The translations under genes were made by a program, and so were the position numbers. The notes under the pieces were generated by a model, which did no database searches, had not been told where the DNA came from, and worked only from the letters and a program-made list of their open reading frames with translations. From a plasmid, in sequence record NZ_LC532224.1: DNA of 64,000 bases; one strand, written 5' to 3'. Positions 6,405 through 63,800 of the stretch are shown here, piece after piece (within the stretch, counting starts at the first letter, position 1; every line of letters starts with the position of its first letter).

Positions 6405-6408
6405 ATCG

Positions 6409-17828: not shown

Positions 17829-18185
17829 CTATCGCTCAGCCAATACGAAACCGGCATTGGCTGATGCCACAACCGAGACTAACACAAATGGCTCGGTACC
17901 TGTATTTCGCGCCCCGTGCACTTGGCCCGGTCTTGCCACGGCTATCTCACCTTCCCTGAGGGCACGAACAATCCCATTGCCCTGAAAGTAATCAGCCATT
18001 CCCGACAAAACAGTCCACGTGTCTTGGCCGTGAGGATGAATGTGAGCCGCAATTTCCTGCCCGGGATGGACATGCCAAACCACGATAATTGAGTCTCGGG
18101 TTTCAAGCACAACGGAACGAATAGGCTCGCCTTCGGACGGCTGAACATACTCGGCTACAGAAAATATTCTCGATTCAACAGTCAT
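17829..18185 (-). CDS. cupin-domain protein (start MTVESRIF with strong Shine-Dalgarno; long ORF to 18404 is spurious overlap)
   Basis: HVHPGQEIAAHIHPHGQ...VHGARN matches the two-His cupin motifs. Confidence 0.6.
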   Translation of the reverse strand: MTVESRIFSVAEYVQPSEGEPIRSVVLETRDSIIVVWHVHPGQEIAAHIHPHGQDTWTVLSGMADYFQGNGIVRALREGEIAVARPGQVHGARNTGTEPFVLVSVVASANAGFVLAER

Positions 18186-18576: not shown

Positions 18577-18869
18577 ATCGGTTGCGCCTCCGCGAGCACC
18601 TTGGCCCGGAACTTCGGCGGCAGGTCGCCGGGAGTCAGCAGATCGACGTCAACGCCGAGCAGCGATTTCAGTTCTTCTTCCAAATCGCCCAAGTCCAACA
18701 ACGTGGCACCGGGCAGCGCATCGACCAACAGGTCGAGGTCGCTGCCATCCCGGTCGGTGCCATGCAGCACCGAGCCGAAGACGCGCGGGTTCGCGGCGCG
18801 AAAGCGGCCTACCGCTTCACGCACTGCGCTTCGCTTCATGTCAAGCACAACAGACGGTCGCATGCGCAT
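18573..18869 (-). CDS. mnt: MNT-type nucleotidyltransferase antitoxin
   Basis: GSVLHGTDRDGSDLDLLV fits the GS-x(n)-DxD minimal nucleotidyltransferase motif. Confidence 0.8.
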   Translation of the reverse strand: MRMRPSVVLDMKRSAVREAVGRFRAANPRVFGSVLHGTDRDGSDLDLLVDALPGATLLDLGDLEEELKSLLGVDVDLLTPGDLPPKFRAKVLAEAQPI

Positions 18870-19021
18870 CCTTTCTTATCGAAACTCGTTGAGATGATAT
18901 GCAATCAAGAATAGAATTTCAAGAACTATTTTCGAGAATCGCAATGCCTTGATTCCCGTGCCGCGCCGGTTGCCTTGGCGGGCTTGTCACAAACCTACGT
19001 TTTCAAGAAGAAGGAAACCGC

Positions 19022-21988: not shown

Positions 21989-21999
21989 CGTGCTTTATT

Positions 22000-49518: not shown

Positions 49519-49869
49519 TTATTTTTTCTTGAACGGGTTAAGTCTGGTGAGATTAGAGAGTGCCCCTCCCGGAGGCAAAATTCCCGTCCTTTTATATTTG
49601 TACACGCCATTTAATTTCATTGTCTGGATTCCAAGATTAATAAGCGTGACAAGTTTAAGGGTATACAGGAGTGTAAATTGGGGAGCAACCTGAATAAAAA
49701 CTAATAACAAGCCTGCACACATTACACGTAGCCATGCCGCGTACTCCATGCTCAGCGGACGCTTGAAATAGAATCTTTCGAGCAAATCAACTGTCTTATT
49801 ACTGATCCACGCCGCCGCCACTGAGAGTAACAACACGATGCACACCATAATGCCCAGTTCCATTTTCAC
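49519..49869 (-). CDS. small membrane protein
   Basis: Three hydrophobic helices. Confidence 0.4.
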   Translation of the reverse strand: MKMELGIMVCIVLLLSVAAAWISNKTVDLLERFYFKRPLSMEYAAWLRVMCAGLLLVFIQVAPQFTLLYTLKLVTLINLGIQTMKLNGVYKYKRTGILPPGGALSNLTRLNPFKKK

Positions 49870-50704
49870 TCCCTTCTCTTTTAGTCTGTTTAAGTTGAGG
49901 CTTAGCCACAGTAGTTTTGTTTTTTGCTTTTTTCTTAGGTTTGGTATGGTGAAACAGAAAACAATCCACCATTACCCAACCATTTTTATATCGAGCCACC
50001 AGCATCTTCTGGCTGGGGTAATGAGCATGAAACAGCATTTTCACGTCCATGGTGCCCATCAACGACTGTTTGCGCTTTAGCTCATCCTCAGCCATCTGAA
50101 ATTCTTGTAAGAATTCTGAAGACAGACGCTGACGCAGAATTCTTATGGCACTGGAGTTTTCATCATTCTTTGCCAGGTGCCCGAAGCGTACAAGTGCCTT
50201 GTGGGTTATCTGGATGGGTCCCAGATGAGAGCTGAGCTGTTCGTACTGCCAGAAGTAGGTCAAATCCACCTTAACCCAGCTGATGCTGTCCAGCAGAGCC
50301 TCGTTCATGATGGTTCCGGACATAGGTACCATTGTCAGCCTGGCCAGACGCATATGTATGTAGTCCGTAAGCAACCTCAGCGACTCAGGAACGTTTTTAT
50401 TGAGTAGGAGATGCTGAAGCACCGGGGTTGCGGTCTGCCAACACAGATTGCGCCCGTCAGGCAGGAAAGCAAACTTTTGATCGTCAGGCGCAGAGTTCGA
50501 AGCGTTTTCCTTACGAAGCAAAAAATAATGGCCGCACAGCAGCTCTGCTCTTACCTGGTCCTCGTCAGGGTCATGTCGGGCTTTACTTAGATCAACGGTT
50601 AGCACAACGCGGTTAATCGCATCAGCGTGATATTTTTTTACCCAGACGCAGACACGATAGAGACGCTCATCGATTTTCTGGCTGGCTGTGGAAATCCATT
50701 GCAT
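49799..50704 (-). CDS. hypothetical protein with Lys-rich C-terminal tail (3' end overlaps next ORF; true stop uncertain)
   Basis: ORF only. Confidence 0.4.
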   Translation of the reverse strand: MQWISTASQKIDERLYRVCVWVKKYHADAINRVVLTVDLSKARHDPDEDQVRAELLCGHYFLLRKENASNSAPDDQKFAFLPDGRNLCWQTATPVLQHLLLNKNVPESLRLLTDYIHMRLARLTMVPMSGTIMNEALLDSISWVKVDLTYFWQYEQLSSHLGPIQITHKALVRFGHLAKNDENSSAIRILRQRLSSEFLQEFQMAEDELKRKQSLMGTMDVKMLFHAHYPSQKMLVARYKNGWVMVDCFLFHHTKPKKKAKNKTTVAKPQLKQTKREGSENGTGHYGVHRVVTLSGGGVDQ

Positions 50705-50713
50705 TGTTGTTCC

Positions 50714-51709
50714 TTAATTTTCGGGGCTGACAATGAAAATGCCCAGCTCAGCCCCCGGCACGAGTTCTGTATATTTCAGGCTCAGCTTCCGTTGGTTGGA
50801 CGGACCCTGGCTGTTTTCAGGAGCCCAGTCAGAGAGCGTTTTTAATTGAGGTATGTTGCCTGCTGCGAAAATGGGCAAGGATGCTTTTACTACTGAATAA
50901 TCAGTCTCAGCATATTTATTCCCGTTTCGTTCCTGCCCTTCAGGCCTAAATGCAAAAATGTGAGCAATCGGAACAGGGAAAGAGTTAGTTCGACAAAGGC
51001 GATAAGATTCGCCCTGCTTCAGTGGGTGAAATTCAAGACGGTGTAAAGCCTTATCGATATTAGACACGACATTCAAATTGGTAGTTGCTACATTTTTTAC
51101 TTCTGAGGCTCTCCTGCGCTCCAACAAACTCACAAGTTGCTCTGCTGTTTTAACTTCCTGGTTTCGGTTTAGCCGCCATGAAAAAGTAACTTTTTTAAGC
51201 TGGGACTTGATGAAAAGGATATTTCTTGTTGAGTGCATAGCGACAAGGCCCGGGAGCTTCTTGTGCACTTTATCAAAACGGACATTCTTTTTATTATCGA
51301 TACGCCTCATTGCCGCAGCAAAATCATTTTTTGCTTCGTTTATAGAAGTGATCAAGCTTTCGAGAAGATCTGCTCTTTCGGGGACAATGATTAGACCCGG
51401 GTATTTAGTGGTTACTTTGGTGGAATCATGACTTAATGACTCTATGTCATCCACACAGATGTCAGTAAGTGCCTGAATAATTTCCTCAACCGAAGCATCG
51501 TCTTTAATACTAACCCTGATGGGTTTAACCTGCTTCAAGCGCTCTTCTGTTCTAGATACGGTGGAGACAGTCATCAGGTTTGCCATCATCGGGGGGGTGT
51601 TCGAAAGAAAACACTTGAGCGAGTCGATGCGTTCCAGAATCTGGTCACGAAAATAGGGCAAATCGTCATAACTCATACGTTTCTCCAGGCTCATGTTATT
51701 TCCAATCAA
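50714..51709 (-). CDS. hypothetical protein (331 aa)
   Basis: ORF only. Confidence 0.45.
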   Translation of the reverse strand: MIGNNMSLEKRMSYDDLPYFRDQILERIDSLKCFLSNTPPMMANLMTVSTVSRTEERLKQVKPIRVSIKDDASVEEIIQALTDICVDDIESLSHDSTKVTTKYPGLIIVPERADLLESLITSINEAKNDFAAAMRRIDNKKNVRFDKVHKKLPGLVAMHSTRNILFIKSQLKKVTFSWRLNRNQEVKTAEQLVSLLERRRASEVKNVATTNLNVVSNIDKALHRLEFHPLKQGESYRLCRTNSFPVPIAHIFAFRPEGQERNGNKYAETDYSVVKASLPIFAAGNIPQLKTLSDWAPENSQGPSNQRKLSLKYTELVPGAELGIFIVSPEN

Positions 51710-51766
51710 TTTTGCTGCCCAGGCTGACCTTGCAGAACATAAATGTCATGTAAACCTCTAAAGAAG

Positions 51767-52213
51767 TCATTTTGAAACAGCTTTCACAGCATGCGATTTA
51801 TGTTCGATAGGGCTCATGAACAAAGGATGATAATGGAGACGCCATGGATAGTGGATAGTCTTACCCACCTGGGTGATCCGATTGAGGCGAAAACGACCAT
51901 TTATACAGTCAACTGACCAAAGCCCGGGAGAAACTAACCTCTTCCAGCGGTAAAAAGAGAAACCTGCAACACAGAGGTCATGCTCCAGGAAATGTTGAGT
52001 TTCGACGACGCGAACTTTTATCAAAAACCCCAGCATTGGCGAAAACCAGATCAACAACCATGTTGGCGGCAGGATGACTTTGTTCAGGAGATGATCTGTC
52101 ATAAGCAAGGCAGATAACATCAGAAAACTGATAGTCAACCACAGGGCCATCCAACCGGCCCATACGCGGCTCTGACAGGGTTTCCATTCGAGAAGAAAAA
52201 GTTTTTTATGCAT
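51767..52213 (-). CDS. membrane protein (148 aa)
   Basis: Hydrophobic N-terminal half. Confidence 0.4.
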   Translation of the reverse strand: MHKKLFLLEWKPCQSRVWAGWMALWLTISFLMLSALLMTDHLLNKVILPPTWLLIWFSPMLGFLIKVRVVETQHFLEHDLCVAGFSFYRWKRLVSPGLWSVDCINGRFRLNRITQVGKTIHYPWRLHYHPLFMSPIEHKSHAVKAVSK

Positions 52214-52229
52214 TCTGCCCCGCCTAATT

Positions 52230-52766
52230 TTAATGTATTGCCGAAGTATGCTGCATCATGATGGTGGTGCGGGGAAAGATTTCAAACTTCCACAATTCTG
52301 AAGCCGTGTTCCAACCATGAAAGATCCCGTCTCCACAGCGAGTGTTAAAAGCAAGAATTTCATCCCTGACCTGGTAAGCGAGCACTTCTGGCATATCAAT
52401 AAACTCAGGTAAGGAAAGAAGAATTCCATGGATAACTTCTCCGGTTAACTTACTCATAACCTCTTCCTCAGACAGGGCAGCGTCCGGGAACAAACACAAC
52501 GGAAGTGAAAAACAACATAGGTCAAGACCAATAGCAGCCCTTCCTGCGTCGTAGCCTTCTTCATTAACGACAAAACGAAAGAATTTTTCTGTCTCACCCC
52601 GTAATGATGACGGTCCTTCAGACGGAACTTCAATACCACTGAAGACTTTATCGGTCCAGTTGGTAAAAGGACTGGTGAAAACCCAACAAATTAAGGATAA
52701 CGCCAGCTCTTCCTTAAACATACGTTCAGTGCCGGTAGTTCTGGAAAGTTGCTTTTGAGTACTCAT
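52230..52766 (-). CDS. hypothetical protein (178 aa)
   Basis: ORF only. Confidence 0.4.
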   Translation of the reverse strand: MSTQKQLSRTTGTERMFKEELALSLICWVFTSPFTNWTDKVFSGIEVPSEGPSSLRGETEKFFRFVVNEEGYDAGRAAIGLDLCCFSLPLCLFPDAALSEEEVMSKLTGEVIHGILLSLPEFIDMPEVLAYQVRDEILAFNTRCGDGIFHGWNTASELWKFEIFPRTTIMMQHTSAIH

Positions 52767-52839
52767 GTTTTACCTGTTGCATGAAATTATTGATGTTATA
52801 TAAACACAACCGGCATTTTATCTAATAGGTTTGAAAACA

Positions 52840-53097
52840 CTAAAAATCGCAAATGCTGGTACCTTTCTGTTTTAAGAGATTTTCAAGGTAAAGTGAGGCT
52901 AGATCAATTGGCTGGTTCTCTTCAAGACAGGCTCGCACAAGATCTTCAATAGAGACCGAATCAACCCCCCTTCCCTGTAAAATTTCTTTAGCAGATGCCA
53001 GCGTTTTATGAACGCTTCGACTTAGTTGTAATCTGACTTGTGTGCGGGTATCAAAAAGACAATCTTCTGTGACACTTTGTGAAACGGTTCTACTCAT
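52840..53097 (-). CDS. small hypothetical protein (85 aa)
   Basis: ORF only. Confidence 0.35.
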   Translation of the reverse strand: MSRTVSQSVTEDCLFDTRTQVRLQLSRSVHKTLASAKEILQGRGVDSVSIEDLVRACLEENQPIDLASLYLENLLKQKGTSICDF

Positions 53098-53104
53098 TGA
53101 AAAA

Positions 53105-53695
53105 TCACTCCATTTCTGGGATCGAATGAAAATTAACAGCTATAGATGTATCAGGTTTCCCATTTTCTACGATACTCAACCACGTACGCGCTGAGATTTG
53201 TTGTTCACAGACGAGTATGTAACCTGTTCCCTGTTGATGATGTAGCTCAAGAGCTTTTAGGATAGGCTCTGAATGAGGTCCGAGAGCATCACGCGTGTGA
53301 ATAAGCGTTTGCTCTGGCAATACGTTGCTAAGCATAGACAGCAGAACATTACGCTCATCCTCATTATCCGACAAAACAAGAATTATACGAAAACCCGTTT
53401 TTATACGAAATCTGATTTCTGAAACTAACTTTCTTAATCTTAATTTATATATGACCAGGCGGAATCGAGTCATCAGTAAAGAGACCACTGTGAAGATAAC
53501 GATTACTGCGCCATATTTTGACCTGTAGAACCACCAGTTAAGGCCTCCAGCAACTATCAGGATTAACATTAAAATTAAACTCCCATAGAAAAAAAGTGCT
53601 GGGTAGCGAGTTGTCTTTCCTTCAATTAGTGCTGAGGCAAATATCAAAATGGATATTCCGTAAATTACCCAGTCAAAAATACTTTCTCCAATCAT
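53105..53695 (-). CDS. membrane-anchored protein with ~110-aa cytoplasmic α/β domain
   Basis: Three transmembrane helices are followed by RIILVLSDNEDE...GYILVCEQ, a Rossmann-like strand pattern. Confidence 0.45.
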   Translation of the reverse strand: MIGESIFDWVIYGISILIFASALIEGKTTRYPALFFYGSLILMLILIVAGGLNWWFYRSKYGAVIVIFTVVSLLMTRFRLVIYKLRLRKLVSEIRFRIKTGFRIILVLSDNEDERNVLLSMLSNVLPEQTLIHTRDALGPHSEPILKALELHHQQGTGYILVCEQQISARTWLSIVENGKPDTSIAVNFHSIPEME

Positions 53696-53739
53696 TCTTT
53701 AGTGAACATCCTTAAAAGTGGAAATGTAGGTTTATGGGT

Positions 53740-54045
53740 TTATGCATTTTCCTGATGGCCTTGACAACCAAGGATTTCACAGAAATTGTCACAGTGTGAA
53801 GCTGTAACAAAGCGCTCTCCACGTTCGAATCGCTCAACCAAATCCTTTCTTACTTCACTTCCAGGTTTCTGGAAGATGTACTCAAGCTGGAGATCCTCGG
53901 CCGTTGAAAGTAGTCGTTCTATGCTGAAATCAACATGGTAAAAGCAAAACTGATTATCAACCGGGGGAAAGTTGCTTTTGGTACTGTTCTCGTTTTTGGA
54001 TTTTAGTTCATTCATGAGCTCTCCTTGGTTGAGAACAGTATACAA
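53740..54045 (-). CDS. small hypothetical protein with C-terminal Cys/His cluster
   Basis: ORF only; ASHCDNFCEILGCQGH lies at the C-terminus. Confidence 0.35.
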   Translation of the reverse strand: MYTVLNQGELMNELKSKNENSTKSNFPPVDNQFCFYHVDFSIERLLSTAEDLQLEYIFQKPGSEVRKDLVERFERGERFVTASHCDNFCEILGCQGHQENA

Positions 54046-54278
54046 ATCTCTTTAGGGATTTTTTTTCGTTAATAGCACTTTTTTGAGTTTAAAGAGTATG
54101 TTCATACCAGAGCATTAGAGGCTACGAAAAGGATAATGGAATTAGAAAGATAGATTTTAAGTGGTGATGTAAGGTGGGATAGGTAGAAGAGGAGTAGACG
54201 CTTGTAAGCGAGGCAAAAAAAAGGCACGGAAACCGTGCCATAAGAGTATGTGAGAAAAAATCAAAATCAGGGAAAGAA

Positions 54279-55241
54279 TCAAGCAGCTTGTGAAACTGAA
54301 TCTCCAACTGCAAGATTTAAATTTCTTAGGTTATCGAAAACTTCAGATACTAAGTCATTACGGTCGTGGATTTTAATCCGCCCACCGGTTAACTCTGAAA
54401 CATAAACGGTATGGCAGAGGTCAGTAACCACTTCGCCGTATTCATCAACGACTTCCAAAGATGCAATCATCGGAATATAAGAAGCCGCAGCATAGCTCTC
54501 ATAAATACTTATTATGGAGTCATTGTTGCGTCGAGAAATTACCCTACCAGAAGGTAAAGCCTCATCTTCCATATAGCAATCAGATAGGTCCTCACAGAAG
54601 TCATTTTCTTTAAGTGAAATATTAAGGGTCAATTCACTGTTGATAGAGCGTGAATAAGAATATTCACTCAGTTTATAGCAAGCCAAACTTATATCACTAA
54701 AAGTTTCATAAGCTTTATAGAGGCTCGATGTTATAGACTCAGATACAAATGTTATTAGTCCAATAAAATGAGTATCCCAGAACTGTTGCAAAGCAAAACG
54801 GGCAATCATAACCTGACCATCAACCTGCATCAGTCTGTTATATTCATCCCGGTCATAACCTTTCGACTGAGAAACATCATTAGACATGCTAAGAACTTCA
54901 CTACAAACATCATCATATTCAAAACGGCTAGTTGCAAAGTGTTTTCCTGAAATCTCAAGGTACTGACCAGAGACTGCGTCAAACACCTCAAGAAAGTAAC
55001 AGAGTCGAGATTTTAAAGATTCTCTGTTTAAAGCTTCTATTTCATTCTCAGAGATACTATCGACATATAAATCAACAGCATTCTTGAGTTCAATAGCTTT
55101 GATATTACAGGTAAAAGAAAGCTCGTCACTTTGACAATGGCAAACACTTAATACTATATCCGCCTCATCAAAATCTATGCCAAGATAGCTCAGAACTGCT
55201 CGGACATAGTTTTTATCATCAGATGAATGTGTCATATACAC
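54279..55241 (-). CDS. paralog family member A (320 aa), unknown function
   Basis: It aligns with the next gene, e.g. LMQVDGQVMIARFALQQFWDTHF against YLDKMKVDGKVLVAKFALKQFFHSDF. A Shine-Dalgarno gaggtagtgtatATG lies upstream. Confidence 0.6.
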   Translation of the reverse strand: MYMTHSSDDKNYVRAVLSYLGIDFDEADIVLSVCHCQSDELSFTCNIKAIELKNAVDLYVDSISENEIEALNRESLKSRLCYFLEVFDAVSGQYLEISGKHFATSRFEYDDVCSEVLSMSNDVSQSKGYDRDEYNRLMQVDGQVMIARFALQQFWDTHFIGLITFVSESITSSLYKAYETFSDISLACYKLSEYSYSRSINSELTLNISLKENDFCEDLSDCYMEDEALPSGRVISRRNNDSIISIYESYAAASYIPMIASLEVVDEYGEVVTDLCHTVYVSELTGGRIKIHDRNDLVSEVFDNLRNLNLAVGDSVSQAA

Positions 55242-55406
55242 TACCTCAAATTTGAGAGGAAGTGCCCCAGAAGGGAAGCGACTTCCCCACTGGGTTAGAT
55301 AAAAGTTTGGTTAAGCTAAAAGAAGATGCCAGCGACAGATTTTACATTGTCATAGACAAGTGTCTTCAGCCAACCAAAGTTACTTTTTTGGACTGAAGCA
55401 AAAGGA

Positions 55407-56345
55407 TCATTGAGACGCGTTACGAAAATCGTCAAAAGCTTCAGTTATTAGTAATGTGCGATCAGTTACTCTGTATCGGTCATTACTTTCGAGAGATACG
55501 TAAGTTGAATGCGAAGAATCACAGACAACACGCCCTCTTTTATTGATCAATCTTACTTCCATCATCACCGGCACATTGATAATTGAAGCAACATCGGTAT
55601 AGAGGGATATGAGGGCATCATTGTCACAATATAACGCCCCGTTCCCATCAAATGTATCGTTAAACTTAATATATATATCTGGCATATTTGCCGGATAATC
55701 ATCAGTATTGAAATCAATGCATAACTTTAAGTCATCATTAATACGGCGATTAATCTTATGCTGCCCAACACGTACAAAGCCATGTTCAACAGCTTTGATA
55801 ATCCTTAAAGTTTCATTAAGACAATCTGTAATTCTTTTCTCGACAAATGAGATAAAGTCACCAAAGTCGGAATGAAAAAACTGTTTAAGTGCAAATTTCG
55901 CAACTAACACTTTCCCATCCACCTTCATTTTATCGAGATAAAGATTTCTTATAGCATCAGTAGAAGAATTAGCTTTAGATAACTCTTCACAGTCATTAAT
56001 AATCATTGAAACAATATCAATAACTTTAACTGGGCTTAAAGTATTACTATATCCGCGAATATCAAACGTAAAAAATCCGAAATTCTTAAATACTCCAAGA
56101 AAATAAATTATTTTTTGTTTCAAAAGAATAGAATCGGAGTAAGATGCGTTGTGCTTTATTAGTTCAGATATGTAGAGATCCAACATACAATTTAAATTAT
56201 CGATATCTACATCGTAATCAAAGGTTACTTTGTCGAACGAAGTATCAGATAATTGAACGGTTATATCGTCAGCGGGAACATTAAGGCCTAAATTTTGATA
56301 AAGAAAGGCACTAACAAATTCCACGTGGTCAGATTCTTTAAACAT
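55407..56345 (-). CDS. paralog family member B (312 aa)
   Basis: A clear paralog of A, also with matching C-terminal motif HS/TxYVS...FD(D/N)(F/L)RN. Confidence 0.6.
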   Translation of the reverse strand: MFKESDHVEFVSAFLYQNLGLNVPADDITVQLSDTSFDKVTFDYDVDIDNLNCMLDLYISELIKHNASYSDSILLKQKIIYFLGVFKNFGFFTFDIRGYSNTLSPVKVIDIVSMIINDCEELSKANSSTDAIRNLYLDKMKVDGKVLVAKFALKQFFHSDFGDFISFVEKRITDCLNETLRIIKAVEHGFVRVGQHKINRRINDDLKLCIDFNTDDYPANMPDIYIKFNDTFDGNGALYCDNDALISLYTDVASIINVPVMMEVRLINKRGRVVCDSSHSTYVSLESNDRYRVTDRTLLITEAFDDFRNASQ

Positions 56346-56411
56346 TTACACTACCTCATGACTAAAAAGGAAGTGCTTCCCACCGGGAAGCAAGTTCCCG
56401 GATGGGTTAGA

Positions 56412-57332
56412 TTAATTATAAAAGAGTTCTTCAGAAGGTACATGCATTTCTGGTTTGAACTGTTTTAAGGAGTTGTTTATAGCTTTTCGATATAACCCTG
56501 AAGAGTGTGGCTTAAACATTTGATATTCCGTAACGAGCAGAGGAGACGTAAAGCATCCTAAGTTCACTAGTGAAATATTTGATGTTTCTTCACAAACATC
56601 TAATTCAGCGTATATCCGCCTCTTCATTACCCTGCCTGCTAAATAGCGACGAACATGATTTATAAACTTGTCCGCATCTGATATAGAATTAACTATATAA
56701 TCAGATGTGACTATCTGATTAGATACAGTTTCAGGTATAGCTTCGGCTATTATTTTTACGTTCATTTCATAATCAACACTATGGAAGCAAGCAAGAATTT
56801 GTGGCTTCGCGCTTTCTAAAATCTTTTCAAGAACAGAAAAAATCAGAGAGAACTCGTTTAAAATTCGCTTTTGTATAAGTCCATGTAGATGTTTTATGAA
56901 AGGAGAACCGTGTTCAACAAGGCCTAGTATAAGATCCTTAGAGGCCAAATCTGAGCGGTAATAAACGTATTCTAGATTATCCCGGTTAAATCCTTTGATA
57001 AGCAAATCAGGCTGCTCTGAGACCAGTCGTAAATGAGTTGAAGCTATAGAAACTTCAAAACGAAAGTTCGCGAGATTTACAGGGCCTGCTTTTAATGTAG
57101 CCGCTTCGGAAAAATAAATGAAAAGAGGATGCAAATCATCGTTACCACAGTAAAGATGGTCTGCGCCCTTAAGATATTTCACCAAATGAGGTAGAAAAGA
57201 TATTACTGGAATATCAGCCACAAATCGAATATGCCGAAATGGTTTTGAATCCAAATATATATTTTCCACTACAGCGCCAACAAAACCCATTTTAACAAGA
57301 ATAGATTCAACTAACTTTTGTATCGCATTCAT
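56412..57332 (-). CDS. tandem ~300-aa gene C (possible distant paralog)
   Basis: Same size, strand and AT-rich codon usage as A and B, with an identical upstream hairpin+Shine-Dalgarno cassette. Confidence 0.5.
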   Translation of the reverse strand: MNAIQKLVESILVKMGFVGAVVENIYLDSKPFRHIRFVADIPVISFLPHLVKYLKGADHLYCGNDDLHPLFIYFSEAATLKAGPVNLANFRFEVSIASTHLRLVSEQPDLLIKGFNRDNLEYVYYRSDLASKDLILGLVEHGSPFIKHLHGLIQKRILNEFSLIFSVLEKILESAKPQILACFHSVDYEMNVKIIAEAIPETVSNQIVTSDYIVNSISDADKFINHVRRYLAGRVMKRRIYAELDVCEETSNISLVNLGCFTSPLLVTEYQMFKPHSSGLYRKAINNSLKQFKPEMHVPSEELFYN

Positions 57333-57400
57333 TTAAATACCCTCTTAATAGAGGGATTTCTCCCAAAGGGAGAAATCCCTATGGGAGAAAATAATTTTAA

Positions 57401-58390
57401 TTAATAATTGTAGCGAAGCGCATGTTCTTTTTCACTAAGATGGTTTTCATATTCCGACTTACCAGAACTTAAACACTCTTTGAAAAAGACCTTTGAAAAA
57501 TTCTTCAAGTCACTTCGGTTGTTAATTTCTTTGTCAGACATCAACTTAGCTGAGTGTGAGGTATCCACAGGCCCCAACCACCATTCATATTTAATATAAA
57601 CACAATTGGTTTTTGTATGTCCATTTAGAAATCGTTTTGCATTTCTAAGTATTTTTCTACAACCGTTAAGGTCTGAAAGTAAGATATCTGGAGCAATGAG
57701 CTCTTCCAGAATATGACCAGGTAAGCCTTTCCTAAAAAGCTCAACATCGTAACTACAATACCAGTCACGATAATTAAAAGCTTTAATAAGTCTTTCAGGT
57801 GTATCCAAAGATATCTTATTCAGGATTTTTAATGCAAAGCATACAGCATCTTTTAACAACTCGTGCACCTCAACATTGATAAATGAGAAAAACGAGCTTA
57901 ATTCTTTCTCTAAGGAATTATACAACTTACCGTAAATATCCTGAGAAAAAAGATACTGCAATCTTTCTTTATTATAAGTGCAATTCGAAATTGAATAGAC
58001 TTCTCCTCTTTCGATTTTGCACCCTTCCCTTAAAACTATAGGAAACCTCAAATGGTTAACAATGAAAGAATGATTCTTTCTTTGCTTCAAAGCATCTAAT
58101 TGAAATTTCGTAATTTCCTCCAGATTTGCATCTTCAAAACCTGGAAAGGGAATATCACAGAAACAAGAACTATATGCTTTTGCTGATTCATACATAAACT
58201 CCAGTGAAACATCAGCATCAAAAGACATACCAGAGAACATGCCCTGCCCATTGTCTAAAAATGTAATGTTTTTAACCTGTATTTTTTTATGTTGAACAAC
58301 CAAAAAGGCATTAATGATTTTTTCGATAATTTTCATGTGATCCTCTCTCAATAAAAAAGGGATCACTCCCATATGGGGTGTGATCCCCAC
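57401..58390 (-). CDS. tandem ~330-aa gene D (possible distant paralog)
   Basis: Same array position and cassette structure as C. Confidence 0.5.
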   Translation of the reverse strand: MGITPHMGVIPFLLREDHMKIIEKIINAFLVVQHKKIQVKNITFLDNGQGMFSGMSFDADVSLEFMYESAKAYSSCFCDIPFPGFEDANLEEITKFQLDALKQRKNHSFIVNHLRFPIVLREGCKIERGEVYSISNCTYNKERLQYLFSQDIYGKLYNSLEKELSSFFSFINVEVHELLKDAVCFALKILNKISLDTPERLIKAFNYRDWYCSYDVELFRKGLPGHILEELIAPDILLSDLNGCRKILRNAKRFLNGHTKTNCVYIKYEWWLGPVDTSHSAKLMSDKEINNRSDLKNFSKVFFKECLSSGKSEYENHLSEKEHALRYNY

Positions 58391-58405
58391 ATGGGTATAA
58401 TTTAA

Positions 58406-59284
58406 TTAAAAATCTGTAAGACCTAAATCTTTATTTCTACCACAAACTGTAGAAGATATAAGACGTTTTACTCGCTTTCGAGCACTTCGGCCTGACGTAT
58501 CTTTCAAGTACATCGGTAATGACAATGATGAGATTTGATTACTTCGCTTATGATGGCAGACTATATAGCCCTGCCTCCACCCCGAACGCACAAACTCACG
58601 GATGCGGTTAATATATGCCGAAGCTTGAGATTTTGTACTTATCGATTCAGAACACTTTAAGTTCTGTTCGATAGAGTAAAGCTCAGCCGCCATTAATTTC
58701 ACCTCATACAGGTCATCCCCATAACTTATAGTTTTCAACAGCTCTTCCTTTTCCCGAATGAAAAATACTTGCTGCATTCCAAGGATCAGGTCATAGGCCT
58801 CTCGAAAGAGGTCGATAAGCTTATTACGAACATAAATCATAAACTCCTCAAAGTGCTGAAGCCAGAAATAAGCCGCATTACTTATTTGTGAATTGTGAGA
58901 ACAAACAAGCCCTTTAGCAAGCTCGACCTCTTCCTCCCGAAAAGTAAAGTTACTTTTCTTAAACCGACTTTGTTCAAAAATGCTTTGATGCATTTCTATC
59001 CATACAGAAACAAAACCGAGGGATTCAAATTCTTCGTTTAACAAATGTAAACTTTCGAAGATTTTCTGAATTTCGATCCCGATGTCATATGACAGTGGAC
59101 ATTCTTTTATAGAATAAACATAACCGGGTAGGAAGTGAGATAAATGCTCAGTTCGCAAATATAAACTGAATTTAAGTTCTGTCAGTGGTTGTTTCAAAGA
59201 TAATTTAGATGATTCGCTTATATTTACTGGTTCAACACCATTTCTAATCAAAATAGCTTTTACCAGGTCCGTAGCTAACTTCAT
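58406..59284 (-). CDS. tandem ~290-aa gene E (possible distant paralog)
   Basis: Same array position and cassette structure as C. Confidence 0.5.
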   Translation of the reverse strand: MKLATDLVKAILIRNGVEPVNISESSKLSLKQPLTELKFSLYLRTEHLSHFLPGYVYSIKECPLSYDIGIEIQKIFESLHLLNEEFESLGFVSVWIEMHQSIFEQSRFKKSNFTFREEEVELAKGLVCSHNSQISNAAYFWLQHFEEFMIYVRNKLIDLFREAYDLILGMQQVFFIREKEELLKTISYGDDLYEVKLMAAELYSIEQNLKCSESISTKSQASAYINRIREFVRSGWRQGYIVCHHKRSNQISSLSLPMYLKDTSGRSARKRVKRLISSTVCGRNKDLGLTDF

Positions 59285-59362
59285 ACAGCCTCCAGTCGTT
59301 ATTGAGGCCTCCCTGATGCAGGTTGGCCATCAGGGAAAATATGTAAATCAATTAGCAACCAA

Positions 59363-59884
59363 TCAGACCGTTGCCATTACATTGTCAATGTATCTGACAA
59401 GGGATGGGCGGTCGTCCTGTAAGGCAAAACGGCGAAGGTCATCAAGATTATACGCAGGAAGATAATCAGCGTAACCTCGAATACGAAGGTCCTCAACCAC
59501 AACTTTTATATACTCAAATCGTCCAAGATTTCCTTTTAATGGGGGTTTTCCTGGACTAGACAGCATATCGTCTGCTTGCTCCCATGTGATTTCTTTAGCT
59601 TCACCACTATGTAGATCAAGATGGACATATATGAATGACTTATAATCTCCACGGCAACGAAGATAATATTTCGGATAGAAATATTTGTCACAACGCAACA
59701 AACACGTTCCTGAAGGACGAACTACGTACAACAGGTTTCTGTCATTTTCTAATATGCCATGTTTCAAAATCGTTATATCTATCTCATTATCATGCAGCAA
59801 ATAGCATGACGATGGTTCATTGACGATGCGCGATTTTATAACAGCAGCAAATTTATTAAAAACTTCGTTAGTTTGAAAATTCAT
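59363..59884 (-). CDS. hypothetical protein (173 aa), first gene of the tandem array operon
   Basis: ORF only. Confidence 0.45.
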   Translation of the reverse strand: MNFQTNEVFNKFAAVIKSRIVNEPSSCYLLHDNEIDITILKHGILENDRNLLYVVRPSGTCLLRCDKYFYPKYYLRCRGDYKSFIYVHLDLHSGEAKEITWEQADDMLSSPGKPPLKGNLGRFEYIKVVVEDLRIRGYADYLPAYNLDDLRRFALQDDRPSLVRYIDNVMATV

Positions 59885-60123
59885 TAAAATGCTCTCCGAT
59901 GTAAAACGACGAGCATCACCATAACGGTAATACTCCCGTTATGGGTTTTAATAGTTTATGGAATAACCATGTCATACAACCGACCATAGCCAGTAGTACC
60001 GCACATTTATTTAACTGAGCAAGCATCTCAGCCGTGAAAAGACCTTAAAGGCAGGTAATTATCACGAAGGAAAGCGGTTATCTTATCAATACAATTTAAA
60101 AAATAATATTGATAAGATAACCC

Positions 60124-60141
60124 CCCCCGCAAAATGCGGGG
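60124..60141 (-). terminator. GC hairpin terminator after primase-like gene, adjacent to a 16-bp AT-rich perfect inverted repeat (60076-60122)
   Basis: The hairpin cccccgcaaaatgcggggg is followed on the minus strand by T-rich sequence. Confidence 0.5.
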
Positions 60142-60153
60142 GAGTTATCGTTG

Positions 60154-61386
60154 TTACAGCTGATTAAGACATTCAGGAGCCCAGTGAATCGGGAATCCAT
60201 CCTGCCCTGTTAACTGGAGAACATCGTTCCAGTCGATACCCTTTTTCCCATCAGGAATATCTTGTGCTGGTTCGAAGACTTCAATTGTCAGCTTTGATGC
60301 GGGATATCGTTTAGCCAAAAACTCAACCATGCGGCTTTGAAGTCGCTGAGCAGCTTCGATACCGGCACGAGTGCCTTGTGAGTTAGCAATATCCTTATCC
60401 GCCCAGATATAAAAGTTTATATATTTTACATCCGGCGGAGGCAGTAAAAAATCAGGAACAGTAACGTTTTCAAGGCACCATGCGGAGCTGGCTGCCCAGC
60501 ATGGTGTTGAAGTCGCTTCTACAACAGAAAGCGCATTCTCGATCCCTTCAGCCACTCCCAGTGTCCAGGTCGAACTACCTGAATCATAGTGAGGGTCAAA
60601 CAACTGAATTGAGCCACCTGTCATATCGGCAGGAGGCTTCATCATCAGCTTTGGATTTTCTACAGGTGCCTTATCACCGTTTTTGTCTACGTATGTTCTA
60701 TGGATAGTCAGAGGCCGACCTCGGGTGTCACGATAGATTGCAATCATTCCCGGATAGATAATCGATTTCTGCTTATCTTTATCCCAATAGTAGATCCGGT
60801 TATTAAAGCCTAAATCCTTTGGTAAGTGACTCAGTAAGCGGGAGATCCCACGATTACGGAGGTACAAAGCAACAGGAGTATTAGGCTTTATTTCACCGGT
60901 ATAGTGATACATCACATCAAGTTTTCGCATTCGCTTTGCCACTTCCTCTCGGTCAAGAGTTTCTGTGGCACGAACTGCTGATTTATAGCGTCGTTCATTT
61001 TCAATGTCGGCGTCAGTTAACGGAGCATGCAGATCCATCCCGAAAAAATCTGAGAGAATCTTTTTGCAAGTCTGCGTTTTACTTAATTCATAATATTTCG
61101 CCAGAACATCAATTCCGTCGCAAAACTCATTTACCGGAAAGTCATTATGGATCGCACATCCGGTATAAAGGTCTTTTTGCCGGAAACGAAACTTCGATTT
61201 CCCTGCGCCAGTAAACGGGCAAGGAACCTGGCTCGGGGCTTTTGCACAAGCGTCTTTGAAAGCAGGTATTCTTTCGAATATATACTTCCAGCCAGACACT
61301 TCAGCAATTCGAGCATGAACGAGTTTAATAAAGTGTTCAGATACTTCCTGTGGTTTACGACGAAGAGCCGGGGATGCATAAGTCAT
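60154..61386 (-). CDS. DNA primase-like protein (zinc-finger + Toprim)
   Basis: CPFTGAGKSKFRF resembles a primase CHC2-type zinc-binding element. ...IWADKDIANSQGTRAGIEAA... resembles a Toprim DxD region. The start is at the internal Met, which has a Shine-Dalgarno. Confidence 0.6.
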   Translation of the reverse strand: MTYASPALRRKPQEVSEHFIKLVHARIAEVSGWKYIFERIPAFKDACAKAPSQVPCPFTGAGKSKFRFRQKDLYTGCAIHNDFPVNEFCDGIDVLAKYYELSKTQTCKKILSDFFGMDLHAPLTDADIENERRYKSAVRATETLDREEVAKRMRKLDVMYHYTGEIKPNTPVALYLRNRGISRLLSHLPKDLGFNNRIYYWDKDKQKSIIYPGMIAIYRDTRGRPLTIHRTYVDKNGDKAPVENPKLMMKPPADMTGGSIQLFDPHYDSGSSTWTLGVAEGIENALSVVEATSTPCWAASSAWCLENVTVPDFLLPPPDVKYINFYIWADKDIANSQGTRAGIEAAQRLQSRMVEFLAKRYPASKLTIEVFEPAQDIPDGKKGIDWNDVLQLTGQDGFPIHWAPECLNQL

Positions 61387-61467
61387 GATGATCTCTCTTA
61401 TCTGGCATTGTGAGTTTCTCAATGCCTTCTGCGGTGCAGAAGACAGGGAGAAACCCACAACGCAGAA

Positions 61468-61487
61468 TTTAAGAAAGAGGGCCCGGG
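61468..61487 (-). terminator. hairpin terminator (gagggcccccgggccctc + T-rich) after the 73-aa gene
   Basis: A perfect 8-bp GC stem. Confidence 0.5.
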
Positions 61488-61499
61488 GGCCCTCAACAT

Positions 61500-61721
61500 T
61501 TATGCTTCAGTCGTGAAGCCATTATTCTCAAGACGCTGTATGTAGTTATCTACAAGTAACGCAGCCTGCTGGCTATTACCCTCCGCTATAGTGACTTCGC
61601 GGAAGATTCTTTCCTGAGGGCTATCATTGCTTATAACTTCACCAACACGTCCGAAAATACGGACTTTATGCATCGCACCGACTTTTTCATGTTCTACACG
61701 GTAAGTTTTTATCTGAGTCAT
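61500..61721 (-). CDS. small hypothetical protein (73 aa)
   Basis: ORF between two terminator-like hairpins. Confidence 0.4.
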   Translation of the reverse strand: MTQIKTYRVEHEKVGAMHKVRIFGRVGEVISNDSPQERIFREVTIAEGNSQQAALLVDNYIQRLENNGFTTEA

Positions 61722-61793
61722 ATTTTGCTCCTTATTCCTTCATGGAGCAAAAAGACCCACCGGGGCCTTTTTGCCCCGATTGGGTAGAGTTTA

Positions 61794-63800
61794 TTAAGAA
61801 AGTATTTGATGAACTAGCTTACTGACTTCAATAGACAATAAAGAAGTATCATCAACTGTTACGAAAGTGTCCGTTTCAAAACCAATTATTTCATCAGTCT
61901 TAATACCAACACCAACGATTTCTATTCCATTACATTTAGCCTTTTCCATAACTTCGACGATAGTAAATTCCGATTTATTCGGATAACCATCAGTTATAAG
62001 AAAAATTATTTTCCTATCGAATTGGCTGTCAAGTAACAGATCAACAGCTGCCATTAAAGCAGATCCCGTAGGGGTATAATAACCCTTACATCCAAGAGTG
62101 AATTTCGATAGAGATTCCTCAACGCTTTGATCAAACGTTTTGATAATCTCAAATTCACTTTCCTTGAAGGGAAAAACTATATTGGAGACATGCATTTTTG
62201 ACAAACTTTCAGCGGCCATCGATAAAGCAAGATCTGACTTAATGGCATGAATATATCTTTCATCATTAGCCATTGACGCTGAAATATCACGAACTAATAC
62301 GAGGCCAACATGCCCTCTATTTTTAGATTCGCTTTGAGCTCTGAAGACATCACGAACTCCCATTTGTGACAGAATTAATCGATTTCCATCGAAGGTAATT
62401 CCACGCTCATGAGTTTTGTTTCGGCCACGCATTTTAACCTGCTGTAAAACAGACAAGTCGCTACCGATTGAATGACTCAGAGACAAAGCCTCATTGTAAA
62501 CATTCAAATCGATAAGGAGATCAGGGATATCCCATTCAGAAGCACCGAATTCGGCTTTCACGTCATCGGATACTTTTGATGCAATACCTTCAATCTCTTT
62601 AGCCAAAGCATCGTGATAATCTTCGCTATCCTCATCACTGCTAAGAAAGGCATCCAACAAATCTGCCAGTATCTCCCATTGAGCCGATGAAAAGTTACTT
62701 TCATCTTCAACGTTAGTCGAACTGGCTTCATCTGATTCACTCTCGGAAGGGTTAATCGCATCAGTATCGTCTTCAATAATGTTATCACCCGTGGGATTGC
62801 CACCGGTGGGTTCATTATTTCCCTCGTTATCTTCAGCAAGTTCTGAAGGCTCAGAACATCCCTCTTGAGCAAGATCAGCGTTATCGGAAGTATCTGCCTG
62901 ACCTTCACTATCGTCCTCAGAATCATCCTCACGACTATCAGTCGACGTAAGCGATTTATCTTCTGATTCGGTATCGGTATCGGTCTCGGATTCATCATAT
63001 GCCTCCTGCTCCTCCTGCTCTGTCTGCTGCTGTTGTTCCTTTGCCTCATCCCGCAGTCTCTCTAAAAGAGCCAGGGTCTTACGAGCAAGGGATTCACAGC
63101 CCTGAGTATTTTCACAACCAAGAGCATCATGAAAAATTTCCTCAACATCAGAAATTACTGGAGAAAGTATCTTTTGGGCATAGTCAAAAAACGGATCGAG
63201 GGTTTCTTTGTGACCTACCTGCTGAAGGACTTTTACTCGCAATGAGTTAAGCAGATACCACTCAATAAATAGGACAGGATTTTCCGGACGAGAAGATATA
63301 TCAGGAGTCATCCTTCCGGCTTTAACCATCAGTGCGTAAGTGGCTGCAAGCCGCCGCTTTGCATCCGGATAATCGTTACCAACCTTCTCTTCCATCTGTA
63401 CATCATCGAACAGATTTATAAGCCCGGTAAGACGTTTTGCCCTGCTATAAGCTTTACGTTTCTCAGCGAGGCTCTCAAACTCTGCATTCATTCCGTCATC
63501 GAAGCGTGTAAACCCTTCAGATGACATGAGAACACTATTAAAGGCGTCACTGTAAACCTCACTGACGGTATAGCGACCATGACCAGCTTCATGACAGGTA
63601 AAACCTTCAATCAGACTGACAAAGTCATCATCGCTATAATCGCCGTTTGGTAAAACACAAACTTTATTGACAGGATCAAAATACGGTCCTTTGGTATTGT
63701 CGTCTATTACAACTCTTACATCGCCTAAGCCGCTAATGACTTTTGCTATATTCTGTAAACGCTTAATATGGCGCGGCGATGATTTAAGATCTAATTTCAT
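61794..63800 (-). CDS. CobT-like protein: N-terminal domain, long acidic Asp/Glu/Ser-rich linker, C-terminal vWA domain
   Basis: The C-terminal MIDAS (VLVRDISASM...ITDGYP) and a ~150-aa acidic low-complexity region match the cobaltochelatase CobT-like architecture common on plasmids and phages. Confidence 0.7.
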   Translation of the reverse strand: MKLDLKSSPRHIKRLQNIAKVISGLGDVRVVIDDNTKGPYFDPVNKVCVLPNGDYSDDDFVSLIEGFTCHEAGHGRYTVSEVYSDAFNSVLMSSEGFTRFDDGMNAEFESLAEKRKAYSRAKRLTGLINLFDDVQMEEKVGNDYPDAKRRLAATYALMVKAGRMTPDISSRPENPVLFIEWYLLNSLRVKVLQQVGHKETLDPFFDYAQKILSPVISDVEEIFHDALGCENTQGCESLARKTLALLERLRDEAKEQQQQTEQEEQEAYDESETDTDTESEDKSLTSTDSREDDSEDDSEGQADTSDNADLAQEGCSEPSELAEDNEGNNEPTGGNPTGDNIIEDDTDAINPSESESDEASSTNVEDESNFSSAQWEILADLLDAFLSSDEDSEDYHDALAKEIEGIASKVSDDVKAEFGASEWDIPDLLIDLNVYNEALSLSHSIGSDLSVLQQVKMRGRNKTHERGITFDGNRLILSQMGVRDVFRAQSESKNRGHVGLVLVRDISASMANDERYIHAIKSDLALSMAAESLSKMHVSNIVFPFKESEFEIIKTFDQSVEESLSKFTLGCKGYYTPTGSALMAAVDLLLDSQFDRKIIFLITDGYPNKSEFTIVEVMEKAKCNGIEIVGVGIKTDEIIGFETDTFVTVDDTSLLSIEVSKLVHQILS

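What the first reader, a model, noticed from the sequence alone, without database searches (positions are those of the whole stretch)
54279..59884. Tandem array of five divergent ~300-aa paralogs of unknown function
Five co-oriented genes of near-equal length lie head-to-tail in strongly AT-rich DNA. A and B are clearly homologous in their central and C-terminal blocks. C, D and E share size, composition and genomic grammar but have diverged almost beyond recognition. This is the pattern of rapidly evolving multigene families such as anti-defence/anti-restriction islands, exclusion proteins or effector-immunity arrays. No known domain is recognisable. Low GC on an hns/hha-encoding plasmid suggests they are H-NS-silenced until transfer or stress.
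Basis: partly seen in the sequence, partly recalled or inferred. Interest (0 to 1): 0.72.

Follow-up and report, generated by a model that had tools for sequence, protein, structure and literature searches.

The report
IncHI plasmid five-paralog transfer-linked gene array
Five neighbouring genes on an IncHI2 resistance plasmid are ancient copies of one plasmid-specific protein with no recognisable relatives; in the related plasmid R27 their counterparts are switched on together with the conjugation machinery, but what they do is still unknown.

Summary
The window is an R478-type IncHI2 plasmid. Positions 54279-59884 (minus strand) carry six co-oriented genes, F-E-D-C-B-A, in the most AT-rich stretch of the window (36.4% GC against 48.6%). 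Five of them (292-318 aa) form one superfamily. A~B and C~D are clear, and E links the two clades by profile comparison. AlphaFold models of A and D have the same order of secondary-structure elements. F (173 aa) is unrelated.

The family has no Pfam, NCBIfam, PHROG, PADLOC or PDB relative and no whole-fold match. It was found only in IncHI-type backbones, always at this locus and in this order, with 2, 4 or 5 copies.

It is not rapidly evolving: dN/dS is 0.16-0.23, like the neighbouring genes. It is not in the leading region: in R27 it lies about 58 kb from mobI/oriT, downstream of Tra2.

In R27 microarrays the orthologues are silent in wild type. In an htdA mutant they rise 38-115-fold, at 25 °C only, like the transfer genes.

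Insertion sequences (IS) interrupt A or E in circulating plasmids, so the genes are accessory.

Best reading (about 0.4): non-enzymatic binding proteins made alongside transfer. An anti-defence role is untested.

The parts
59885..60153 (-). Conserved structured leader between the toprim gene and F. It holds a GC hairpin (60122-60144), a 47-nt AT-rich palindrome (60076-60122), a hairpin CTGAG..CTCAG (60013-60034), a hairpin CCATAACGG-GAGTATTA-CCGTTATGG (59919-59944) and an invariant stem GATGCTC/GAGAGCAT (59889-59917) that pairs the F ribosome-binding site.
   Evidence: This is the best-conserved DNA of the locus: 82.5% identity IncHI2 vs IncHI1 (coding 65-77%) and 70% vs distant L015 (coding 59-64%). 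Fold z-score is -8.2. Nine pairs show compensatory changes. The 59919-59944 hairpin matches the first hairpin of Rfam RF03070 below threshold. Its 16-nt core is exact in all 12 IncHI-type loci that hold this region. In metagenomes the full hairpin occurs only upstream of F.
59363..59884 (-). Gene F, 173 aa. First gene of the unit and not a member of the paralog family.
   Evidence: No hhalign or BLAST link to A-E. No family hit. Always precedes the array. 69% identical to the IncHI1 orthologue.
58406..59284 (-). Paralog E, 292 aa, pI 8.2. The member that bridges the two clades.
   Evidence: hhalign CD-E prob 97.9%, E 4e-13 over 263 columns; AB-E 89.6%, E 1.9e-6. Interrupted by ISSen4 or IS903B in natural IncHI2 plasmids.
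57401..58336 (-). Paralog D, 311 aa. The longest ORF runs to 58390, but the conserved start is the ATG at 58336.
   Evidence: C-D hhalign 99%, E 2e-18. AF2 model pLDDT 77.8, pTM 0.73. Absent from the 4-copy arrays.
56412..57332 (-). Paralog C, 306 aa.
56374..56415 (-). Hairpin-containing 31-nt repeat copy between C and B (GGGAA..TTCCC). Its terminator-like hairpin lies at 56374-56392.
   Evidence: Direct repeat D1, 81% identical to the copy upstream of A, spacing 1112 nt. Terminator-like hit.
55407..56345 (-). Paralog B, 312 aa, pI 4.8.
   Evidence: 27% identical to A over 309 aa, E 2e-37. hhalign 100%.
55233..55303 (-). Second copy of the 31-nt hairpin repeat (55273-55303), plus the ribosome-binding-site and start block shared with B (55233-55248). 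Together they are a remnant of the ~1.11-kb A/B duplication unit.
   Evidence: Repeat families D1 and D11, spacing 1110-1112 nt.
54279..55235 (-). Paralog A, 318 aa, strongly acidic (pI 4.3, net charge -30).
   Evidence: AF2 model pLDDT 88.4, pTM 0.82. Acidic in all orthologues, pI 4.3-4.7. Split by IS2 in R27.
54223..54239 (-). Canonical intrinsic terminator after A (GGCACGG-TTT-CCGTGCC followed by T8). Marks the end of the unit.
   Evidence: It coincides with the switch in R27 from HtdA-repressed genes (R0193-R0210) to constitutively expressed genes (R0184-R0192).

Best explanation
F-E-D-C-B-A is a conserved accessory transcription unit of the IncHI plasmid backbone. Its five ~300-aa genes encode one IncHI-restricted protein superfamily with two clades, E/D/C and B/A. 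The family grew by serial tandem duplication from a two-gene core, one gene of each clade.

The proteins are soluble and cytoplasmic. Each is built of two alpha/beta domains joined by a ~45-residue helix. No polar residue is conserved across the superfamily, so they most likely act by binding partners rather than by catalysis.

The unit lies on the same strand downstream of the Tra2 genes and of the AAA_5-DUF3150-VWA-toprim block, and it belongs to the transfer regulon. It is silent in ordinary growth and switched on with the tra genes when HtdA repression is lifted at the permissive temperature.

Shown: the paralogy, the architecture, the restricted distribution, purifying selection, co-regulation in R27, and tolerance of loss of single members.

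Inferred: the proteins are transfer-coupled binding factors (inhibitors or adaptors) made when the plasmid prepares to transfer. The paralogs would have specialised on different host or plasmid partners to help the plasmid cope with donor or new-host physiology, possibly including counter-defence. They would be accessory rather than required for mating itself.
For: Identity and distribution:
- IncHI2 identity and more than 1100 near-identical plasmids.
- The same array in IncHI1 pHCM1/R27, a Pantoea IncHI1B plasmid, Lelliottia and more distant plasmids.
- Fixed order, with 2, 4 or 5 copies.

Homology and structure:
- A-B 5e-67, C-D 2e-18, CD-E 4e-13, AB-E 1.9e-6, AB-CD 8e-5, all collinear. Cross-clade BLAST hits among representatives.
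- AF2 models of A (pLDDT 88) and D (78) have the same element order. Secondary-structure agreement is 71% against 37±7% in shifted controls.
- Across 19 superfamily sequences only M1 and Y55 are invariant and A10 and L12 nearly so. No TM segment.
- A profile search of 1.84 billion representatives gave 63 hits, all 321 aa or shorter, with no domain fusions.

Selection:
- dN/dS 0.16-0.23.

Regulation:
- In R27, R0198-R0203 give 9-129 units in wild type and 2740-6669 units in the htdA mutant at 25 °C (38-115-fold). They remain off at 37 °C, like upstream R0204-R0210. Downstream R0184-R0192 are constitutive (PMC7366339).
- A terminator after A and a conserved leader before F delimit the unit.

Dispensability of single members:
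- IS2 in A in conjugative R27.
- ISSen4 and IS903B in E.
- E truncated in L010.
- Array decayed in Photorhabdus.
Against: - No partner, activity or phenotype is known.
- The R-number-to-gene mapping in R27 is my own count from three anchors (hha = R0182, insD = R0195, and the '9-gene cluster R0204-R0002'). It is not an annotation I could read.
- The htdA mutation derepresses 139 of 181 expressed R27 genes, so co-regulation is not specific, although the fold change here is among the largest.
- The expression data come from IncHI1, not from the IncHI2 plasmid of the window.
- The A and D models were predicted from the same joint alignment, so their agreement is not independent evidence.
- Lack of conserved polar residues across very divergent paralogs does not exclude clade-specific active sites. 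The A/B clade keeps Y57, Y132, R196 and N199 invariant, with D291 nearly so.
- AFDB could not be searched.
Confidence: 0.4

Rival explanations
1. The array would be a leading-region-type anti-defence island: the genes enter the recipient early, are expressed from the incoming DNA (possibly single-stranded), and each paralog blocks a different restriction, CRISPR or other defence system.
For: - A co-oriented array of divergent paralogs of unknown function on a conjugative plasmid.
- A is as acidic (pI 4.3) as DNA-mimic anti-restriction proteins.
- The hairpin-rich conserved leader includes a hairpin like the first hairpin of RF03070. That motif is suspected, from my own recollection of its description, to act as single-stranded nucleic acid.
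Against: - In R27 the array is about 58 kb, roughly 58 genes, from mobI and the relaxase, next to which oriT lies. That is outside the first ~30 ORFs where enrichment was reported (PMC11541004).
- A typical leading-region gene set (hok, DUF905, many small ORFs) lies on the other side of Tra1 at 89-98 kb.
- The genes are expressed in donors under the tra regulon.
- There is no long Frpo-like hairpin, only short ones.
- No known anti-defence gene is in or next to the array.
- Evolution is slow and syntenic, not mosaic.
Confidence: 0.15
2. The proteins are secretion chaperones or adaptors, or are themselves cargo, of the H-type conjugative T4SS. They would escort or accompany proteins, for example the adjacent toprim/DUF7146 primase-like protein, that are transferred to the recipient with the DNA.
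For: - Donor expression with the tra genes.
- Position directly after a toprim gene and downstream of Tra2.
- At least one member of each clade is always present, which would fit a heteromer.
Against: - The proteins are more than twice the size of such chaperones.
- R27 with A disrupted still conjugates.
- No interaction or translocation data exist.
Confidence: 0.15
3. The proteins are accessory factors of plasmid DNA replication, priming or termination. They would work with the neighbouring toprim protein and the Tus-like terminus-binding protein.
For: The array is embedded between a toprim/DUF7146 gene and a Ter (Tus-like) gene in every locus. Its leader is conserved and immediately follows the toprim gene.
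Against: - The Tus-side genes R0184-R0192 are constitutive, whereas the array is silent in wild type. A replication function would be needed in vegetative growth.
- Members are lost or interrupted in stably maintained plasmids.
- There is no nucleic-acid-binding or nucleotide-binding motif.
Confidence: 0.1
4. The array is a set of orphan immunity proteins that protect the host from contact-dependent (Rhs, CDI or T6SS) toxins.
Against: - No toxin gene or toxin fragment is adjacent.
- The proteins are 2-3 times larger than typical immunity proteins.
- The array is conserved and syntenic rather than strain-variable.
- It is silent unless transfer is derepressed.
- TriX is not among D's 60 listed hits.
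Confidence: 0.05

Closest known systems
Anti-defence islands in plasmid leading regions (Samuel et al. 2024, PMC11541004)
   Same: A co-oriented cluster of uncharacterised genes on a conjugative plasmid. Expression is tied to transfer. One member is very acidic. A structured, conserved non-coding element lies upstream.
   Different: - The array is about 58 kb from mobI/oriT in R27, downstream of Tra2.
- It is donor-expressed under HtdA/TrhRY control.
- It contains no ardA, klcA, psiB, ssb or methylase genes.
- It has no long Frpo-type hairpin.
- It is conserved and syntenic rather than mosaic.
- Its genes are ~300 aa paralogs of one family.
Class I type III secretion chaperones (CesT/SycT/ExsC-like fold) and related small alpha/beta binders (Rhs immunity TriX, AcrIF24, T7 Gp1.2)
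   Different: Only 58-75 of ~310 residues align. There is no sequence similarity, no T3SS or toxin context, and a two-domain architecture with a 45-residue connecting helix that matched nothing in PDB or BFVD.
ArdA/Ocr-type DNA-mimic anti-restriction proteins
   Same: Paralog A has pI 4.3 and net charge -30 in all orthologues, and it is encoded on a conjugative plasmid.
   Different: No Pfam ArdA hit and no structural hit. The other four paralogs are neutral to basic. The position is not oriT-proximal.
The co-induced block upstream of the array on IncHI plasmids (three uncharacterised genes, then AAA_5, DUF3150, VWA and toprim/DUF7146; my count R0002-R0204 in R27)
   Same: Same strand, same regulon (derepressed 19-53-fold in the htdA mutant at 25 °C) and same 'function unknown' status. 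The array is its direct downstream continuation.
   Different: Four of the upstream genes (AAA_5, DUF3150, VWA, toprim/DUF7146) carry recognisable Pfam domains. The array family was detected only in IncHI-type backbones. The array has its own conserved leader.

Membership tests
Leading-region anti-defence island | Located within roughly the first 30 ORFs on the leading side of oriT | tested here: not met
   In R27, mobI and the relaxase lie at 103.9-108.1 kb and the array at 166-173 kb, with about 58 annotated genes between them. oriT is next to mobI according to PMC10838148. This was not checked directly on the IncHI2 plasmid of the window.
Leading-region anti-defence island | Contains or neighbours known anti-defence or SOS-inhibition genes (ardA, klcA, psiB, ssb, orphan methylases) | tested here: not met
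   No such Pfam, NCBIfam or PADLOC hits in the array or in 10 flanking genes.
Leading-region anti-defence island | Frpo/ssi-type single-strand promoter upstream, with genes on the transferred strand | tested here: inconclusive
   The leader folds far better than shuffled sequence (z -8.2), but as several short hairpins and not one long Frpo-like stem. The identity of the transferred strand is not testable here.
Class I T3SS chaperone fold (CesT/SycT-like) | Compact ~130-aa alpha-beta-beta-beta-alpha-beta-beta-alpha dimer, encoded next to its effector | tested here: inconclusive
ArdA/Ocr DNA mimics | Highly acidic surface mimicking DNA, with the ArdA or Ocr fold | tested here: not met
Polymorphic-toxin immunity proteins (TriX-like) | Small protein encoded immediately downstream of its toxin, with fold similarity | tested here: not met
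Any curated protein family (Pfam-A, NCBIfam, PHROGs, PADLOC) or solved structure | Score above the family threshold, or a significant sequence or fold match | tested here: not met
Rfam RF03070 ssNA-helicase motif (for the leader hairpin at 59919-59944) | Score at or above the gathering threshold of 41.5 bits over the 49-nt model | tested here: not met
   23.4 bits, model positions 3-29 only, E 0.013. The stem and the loop AGUAUUA match the consensus. The distant L015 gave no hit. There is no gathering-level hit anywhere in the window, L001 or L013.

The most novel reading that the evidence does not exclude
The array would encode a previously unrecognised fold family of establishment or counter-defence proteins. 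Unlike leading-region genes, these would be pre-made in the donor under the transfer regulon and act in, or be delivered through the H-type T4SS to, the new host. Each paralog would have specialised on a different host target. The conserved hairpin-rich leader would act as a transfer-coupled switch, in RNA or in single-stranded DNA.
Probability: 0.15. Interest if true: 0.8.

Novelty: new variant of a known kind. Interest (0 to 1): 0.5.

Why it matters
IncHI1 and IncHI2 plasmids are major carriers of multidrug resistance. The family was found in about 1400 plasmids of the PLSDB plasmid collection, from Salmonella, E. coli, Enterobacter and Klebsiella.

About 6 kb of their conserved backbone encodes a lineage-specific protein family with no recognisable relatives or fold, and in R27 it is switched on together with conjugation. 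Finding what these proteins bind could reveal how these large, temperature-sensitive plasmids cope with transfer or with new hosts. It would also add a new fold family to plasmid biology.

The finding also shows that transfer-linked 'dark' gene arrays exist outside the oriT-proximal leading region. It comes with a clear experimental handle: derepressed htdA mutants at 25 °C.

Tried and rejected
- Family scans of all six proteins and of 19 family members (Pfam, NCBIfam, PHROGs, PADLOC) gave only isolated chance-level hits. The phrog_10163 lead (E 0.0057, similar length) was matched by 1 of 19 members and was dropped.
- PDB sequence profile searches found nothing.
- The word-indexed homolog search worked poorly for E (3 hits) and for the mixed alignment (14 hits).
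- The search for related loci failed. The alignment was too divergent, and the distant members P0063 and P0057 were not found in genome or metagenome collections. The look-up of encoding contigs gave their context instead.
- Internal duplication between the N- and C-terminal domains was not detectable by hhalign. The only 'hit' came from my overlapping cut points.
- F as a truncated paralog was rejected.
- Further paralogs among the other ~300-aa hypothetical genes of the block were rejected.
- No sigma-70 consensus promoter was found in the leader.
- No Rfam family reached threshold.
- The metagenome scan for the 16-nt hairpin core returned mostly chance 16-mers. Only 9 of 119 matches had the full hairpin, and all 9 were IncHI leaders upstream of F.
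- Literature searches for the R27 gene numbers and for DUF3150 found nothing on function. The IncHI2 evolution paper gave no information specific to the array.
Full report
**What the window is.** Positions 54000-60000 are 99-100% identical to more than 1100 PLSDB plasmids. These come from Escherichia, Salmonella, Enterobacter, Klebsiella, Citrobacter and Serratia and are typed IncHI2A / MOBH / MPF_F; the group includes R478. All genes of the region are annotated 'hypothetical protein'.

**The observation.** Six minus-strand ORFs fill 54279-59884. In transcription order they are:
- F: 59363-59884, 173 aa
- E: 58406-59284, 292 aa
- D: 57401-58336, 311 aa
- C: 56412-57332, 306 aa
- B: 55407-56345, 312 aa
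- A: 54279-55235, 318 aa

The starts of A and D follow the orthologues and RefSeq rather than the longest ORF. The stretch has 36.4% GC against 48.6% for the window and is essentially its most AT-rich 5.6 kb. Its coordinates also contain F, which is unrelated to the others.

**Are the five homologous?**
- A and B align over their whole length: 27% identity, E 2e-37.
- C and D are linked through their orthologues. IncHI1 D against IncHI2 C gives 7e-8, and Lelliottia C against D gives 22% identity over 264 aa.
- I built subfamily alignments from orthologues and from the representatives found. Profile-profile comparison then gave:

| Pair | Probability | E-value | Extent |
|---|---|---|---|
| A-B | 100% | 5e-67 | – |
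| C-D | 99% | 2e-18 | – |
| CD-E | 97.9% | 4e-13 | 263 columns |
| AB-E | 89.6% | 1.9e-6 | – |
| AB-CD | 60.5% | 8e-5 | 248 collinear columns |

- Direct BLAST among representatives also crosses the clades. An A-like and an E-like member match at 2e-5, and C-like and E-like members at 9e-5 and 5.5e-4.
- AlphaFold models of A (pLDDT 88.4, pTM 0.82) and D (77.8, 0.73) have the same order of elements. That order is helix, two strands, helix; helix, two strands, helices; a ~45-residue helix; then a strand-rich C-terminal domain ending in a long helix.
- Read through the sequence alignment, the two secondary-structure strings agree at 71% of positions, against 37±7% for circularly shifted controls. 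Both models came from one joint alignment, so this supports the homology but is not independent evidence.
- Subfamily HMMs hit only these five ORFs in the window and its flank.

Conclusion: there is one superfamily with two clades, E/D/C and B/A.

**What the proteins look like.**
- No family library or PDB sequence search gives a meaningful hit.
- Foldseek against viral models finds nothing.
- The whole architecture is therefore unmatched in the libraries I could search. AFDB was unavailable.
- Across 19 superfamily sequences only M1 and one tyrosine are invariant. The A/B clade keeps a few tyrosine, arginine and asparagine positions. Nothing resembles a catalytic motif.
- There are no hydrophobic segments. 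A is strongly acidic in every orthologue (pI 4.3-4.7). The others range from pI 4.8 to 8.5.

**Distribution and history.**
- A profile of the superfamily searched against 1.84 billion representative proteins found 63 hits. All are 321 aa or shorter. About 24 are full-length clusters, each assignable to one clade, and none is fused to another domain.
- Every locus whose flanks were recovered has the same context. That context is trhI, three unknown genes, AAA_5, DUF3150, VWA, a small gene, toprim/DUF7146, then [F E (D) C B A], five small genes, a Tus-like gene, an unknown gene, an integrase and hha.
- The order never changes, but the copy number does (the 5.5-kb contig by gene sizes only):
  - 2 copies in a distant plasmid (L015), one E/C-like and one A-like;
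  - 4 copies (E, C, B, A) in Lelliottia and L011, and apparently in a 5.5-kb ENA metagenome contig;
  - 5 copies in IncHI1, IncHI2, L012 and L013;
  - only fragments in a Photorhabdus plasmid.
- A 31-nt hairpin-containing repeat and a shared ribosome-binding-site block lie upstream of both A and B, 1110-1112 nt apart. They are a DNA remnant of the duplication unit.

**Rate of evolution.**
- Against a plasmid 81-89% identical in these proteins (L010), dN/dS is 0.16-0.23 for A-E. The sampled neighbours give 0.10-0.35.
- Between IncHI2 and IncHI1 the array proteins are 47-64% identical. This is the low end of the local range of 51-81%.
- These are old, constrained genes. They are somewhat faster than the neighbours but are not a hypervariable island.

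**Regulation.**
- A published R27 (IncHI1) microarray lists R0198-R0203 as not expressed or barely expressed in wild type at 25 and 37 °C (9-129 units). In the htdA (derepressed) mutant they are raised 38-115-fold at 25 °C only (PMC7366339).
- By my count these numbers correspond to the A 5' fragment, B, C, D, E and F. The count runs from hha = R0182, insD = R0195 and the paper's '9-gene cluster R0204-R0002', and it closes consistently from both sides. It remains an inference.
- The upstream genes R0204-R0210 behave the same way (19-53-fold). The downstream genes R0184-R0192 are constitutive. That boundary coincides with a canonical terminator just after A at 54223-54239.
H-NS binding itself was not shown, and htdA loss derepresses most R27 genes.

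**Position relative to oriT.** In R27, mobI and the MOBH relaxase lie at 103.9-108.1 kb. oriT is reported to be next to mobI (PMC10838148). The array lies at 166-173 kb. The leading-region idea is therefore not supported for R27. A hok/DUF905 region rich in small ORFs at 89-98 kb looks more like a classical leading region.

**Dispensability of single members.**
- In R27 gene A is split by IS2 (residues 1-186 and 182-318), and R27 conjugates.
- In clinical IncHI2 plasmids E is interrupted by ISSen4 or by IS903B. One search lists further records in which the 6-kb match is split by an insertion sequence (IS5, ISEc33, other IS3-family elements); I did not locate those insertions.
- E is truncated in L010.
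- The array is therefore accessory.

**Conserved leader (noticed in passing).**
- The 269 nt between the toprim gene and F are the best-conserved DNA of the locus. Identity is 82.5% between IncHI2 and IncHI1, against 65-77% for coding DNA. It is 70% against L015, where adjacent coding DNA is 59-64% identical.
- The region folds into a series of hairpins (z -8.2), and nine base pairs show compensatory changes.
- One hairpin (59919-59944) matches the first hairpin of Rfam's ssNA-helicase motif in both stem and loop, at 23.4 bits against a gathering score of 41.5.
- Its 16-nt core is exact in all 12 IncHI-type loci that hold this region. In metagenomes the full hairpin occurs only upstream of F.
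- An invariant stem pairs the F ribosome-binding site.

**Interpretation.**
- Best supported is a conserved accessory unit, co-regulated with transfer, that encodes non-enzymatic binding proteins which have sub-specialised after duplication.
- Whether they counter host defences, serve the T4SS as adaptors or cargo, or modulate donor physiology cannot be decided with sequence tools.
- I give the general reading about 0.4. The recipient-expressed leading-region version and the T4SS chaperone/cargo version get about 0.15 each, a replication-accessory role 0.1 and an immunity array 0.05.

Noticed in passing
window 59885-60153 (minus strand): The intergenic leader before F is more conserved than any coding DNA of the locus. 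It is hairpin-rich with compensatory changes. It includes a 47-nt AT-rich palindrome and an invariant stem that pairs the F ribosome-binding site.
   Followed up: partly
window 59919-59944 (minus strand): The hairpin CCATAACGG-GAGTATTA-CCGTTATGG matches the first hairpin of Rfam RF03070 (ssNA-helicase) in stem and loop, but below threshold (23.4 against 41.5 bits). Its core is exact in all IncHI-type loci examined, and in metagenomes the full hairpin is found only upstream of F.
   Followed up: partly
window 55273-55303 and 56385-56415; 55233-55248 and 56343-56358: A 31-nt direct repeat with a GGGAAG/CTTCCC hairpin, plus a shared ribosome-binding-site and start block, lies upstream of both A and B, 1110-1112 nt apart. 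This is a DNA-level remnant of the tandem duplication and possibly an intercistronic RNA element.
   Followed up: partly
L009 41241-43530 (R27 166.2-168.5 kb); L017 4707-6810; L018 4884-6651: Independent insertion-sequence hits inside the array in circulating plasmids: IS2 in A (R27), ISSen4 in E (Enterobacter hormaechei IncHI2 plasmids) and IS903B in E (Citrobacter koseri). The AT-rich array seems to be an IS target, and loss of single members is tolerated.
   Followed up: partly
window 60154-63800 and L001 18155-26836: The block upstream of the array holds three unknown genes, AAA_5, a small gene, DUF3150, VWA, a small gene and toprim/DUF7146. It is co-oriented with trhI and is derepressed 19-53-fold with the tra genes in R27 htdA mutants. 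Its function is also unknown.
   Followed up: partly
L016 1196-10113 (R27 89-98 kb): A run of many small co-oriented hypothetical ORFs with a hok toxin and a DUF905 gene lies beside Tra1 (relaxase, mobI). It looks like the classical leading region of IncHI1.
   Followed up: no
L015 8486-10867; L007 8812-10552: A distant IncHI-like plasmid (GCA_025961195.1, host not identified, no PLSDB relative) has a minimal two-gene array, one member of each clade. A Photorhabdus plasmid keeps the backbone but only fragments of B and A.
   Followed up: partly
window 49799-54015: The downstream small genes (91, 196, 85, 178 and 148 aa, two of them annotated as membrane proteins in a related plasmid) and a 301-aa gene next to the Tus-like gene have no Pfam hit. 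In R27 they are constitutively expressed, unlike the array.
   Followed up: partly
window 16000-22000: A block of 58-66% GC stands out from the ~48% window average. It is probably an acquired accessory insertion.
   Followed up: no
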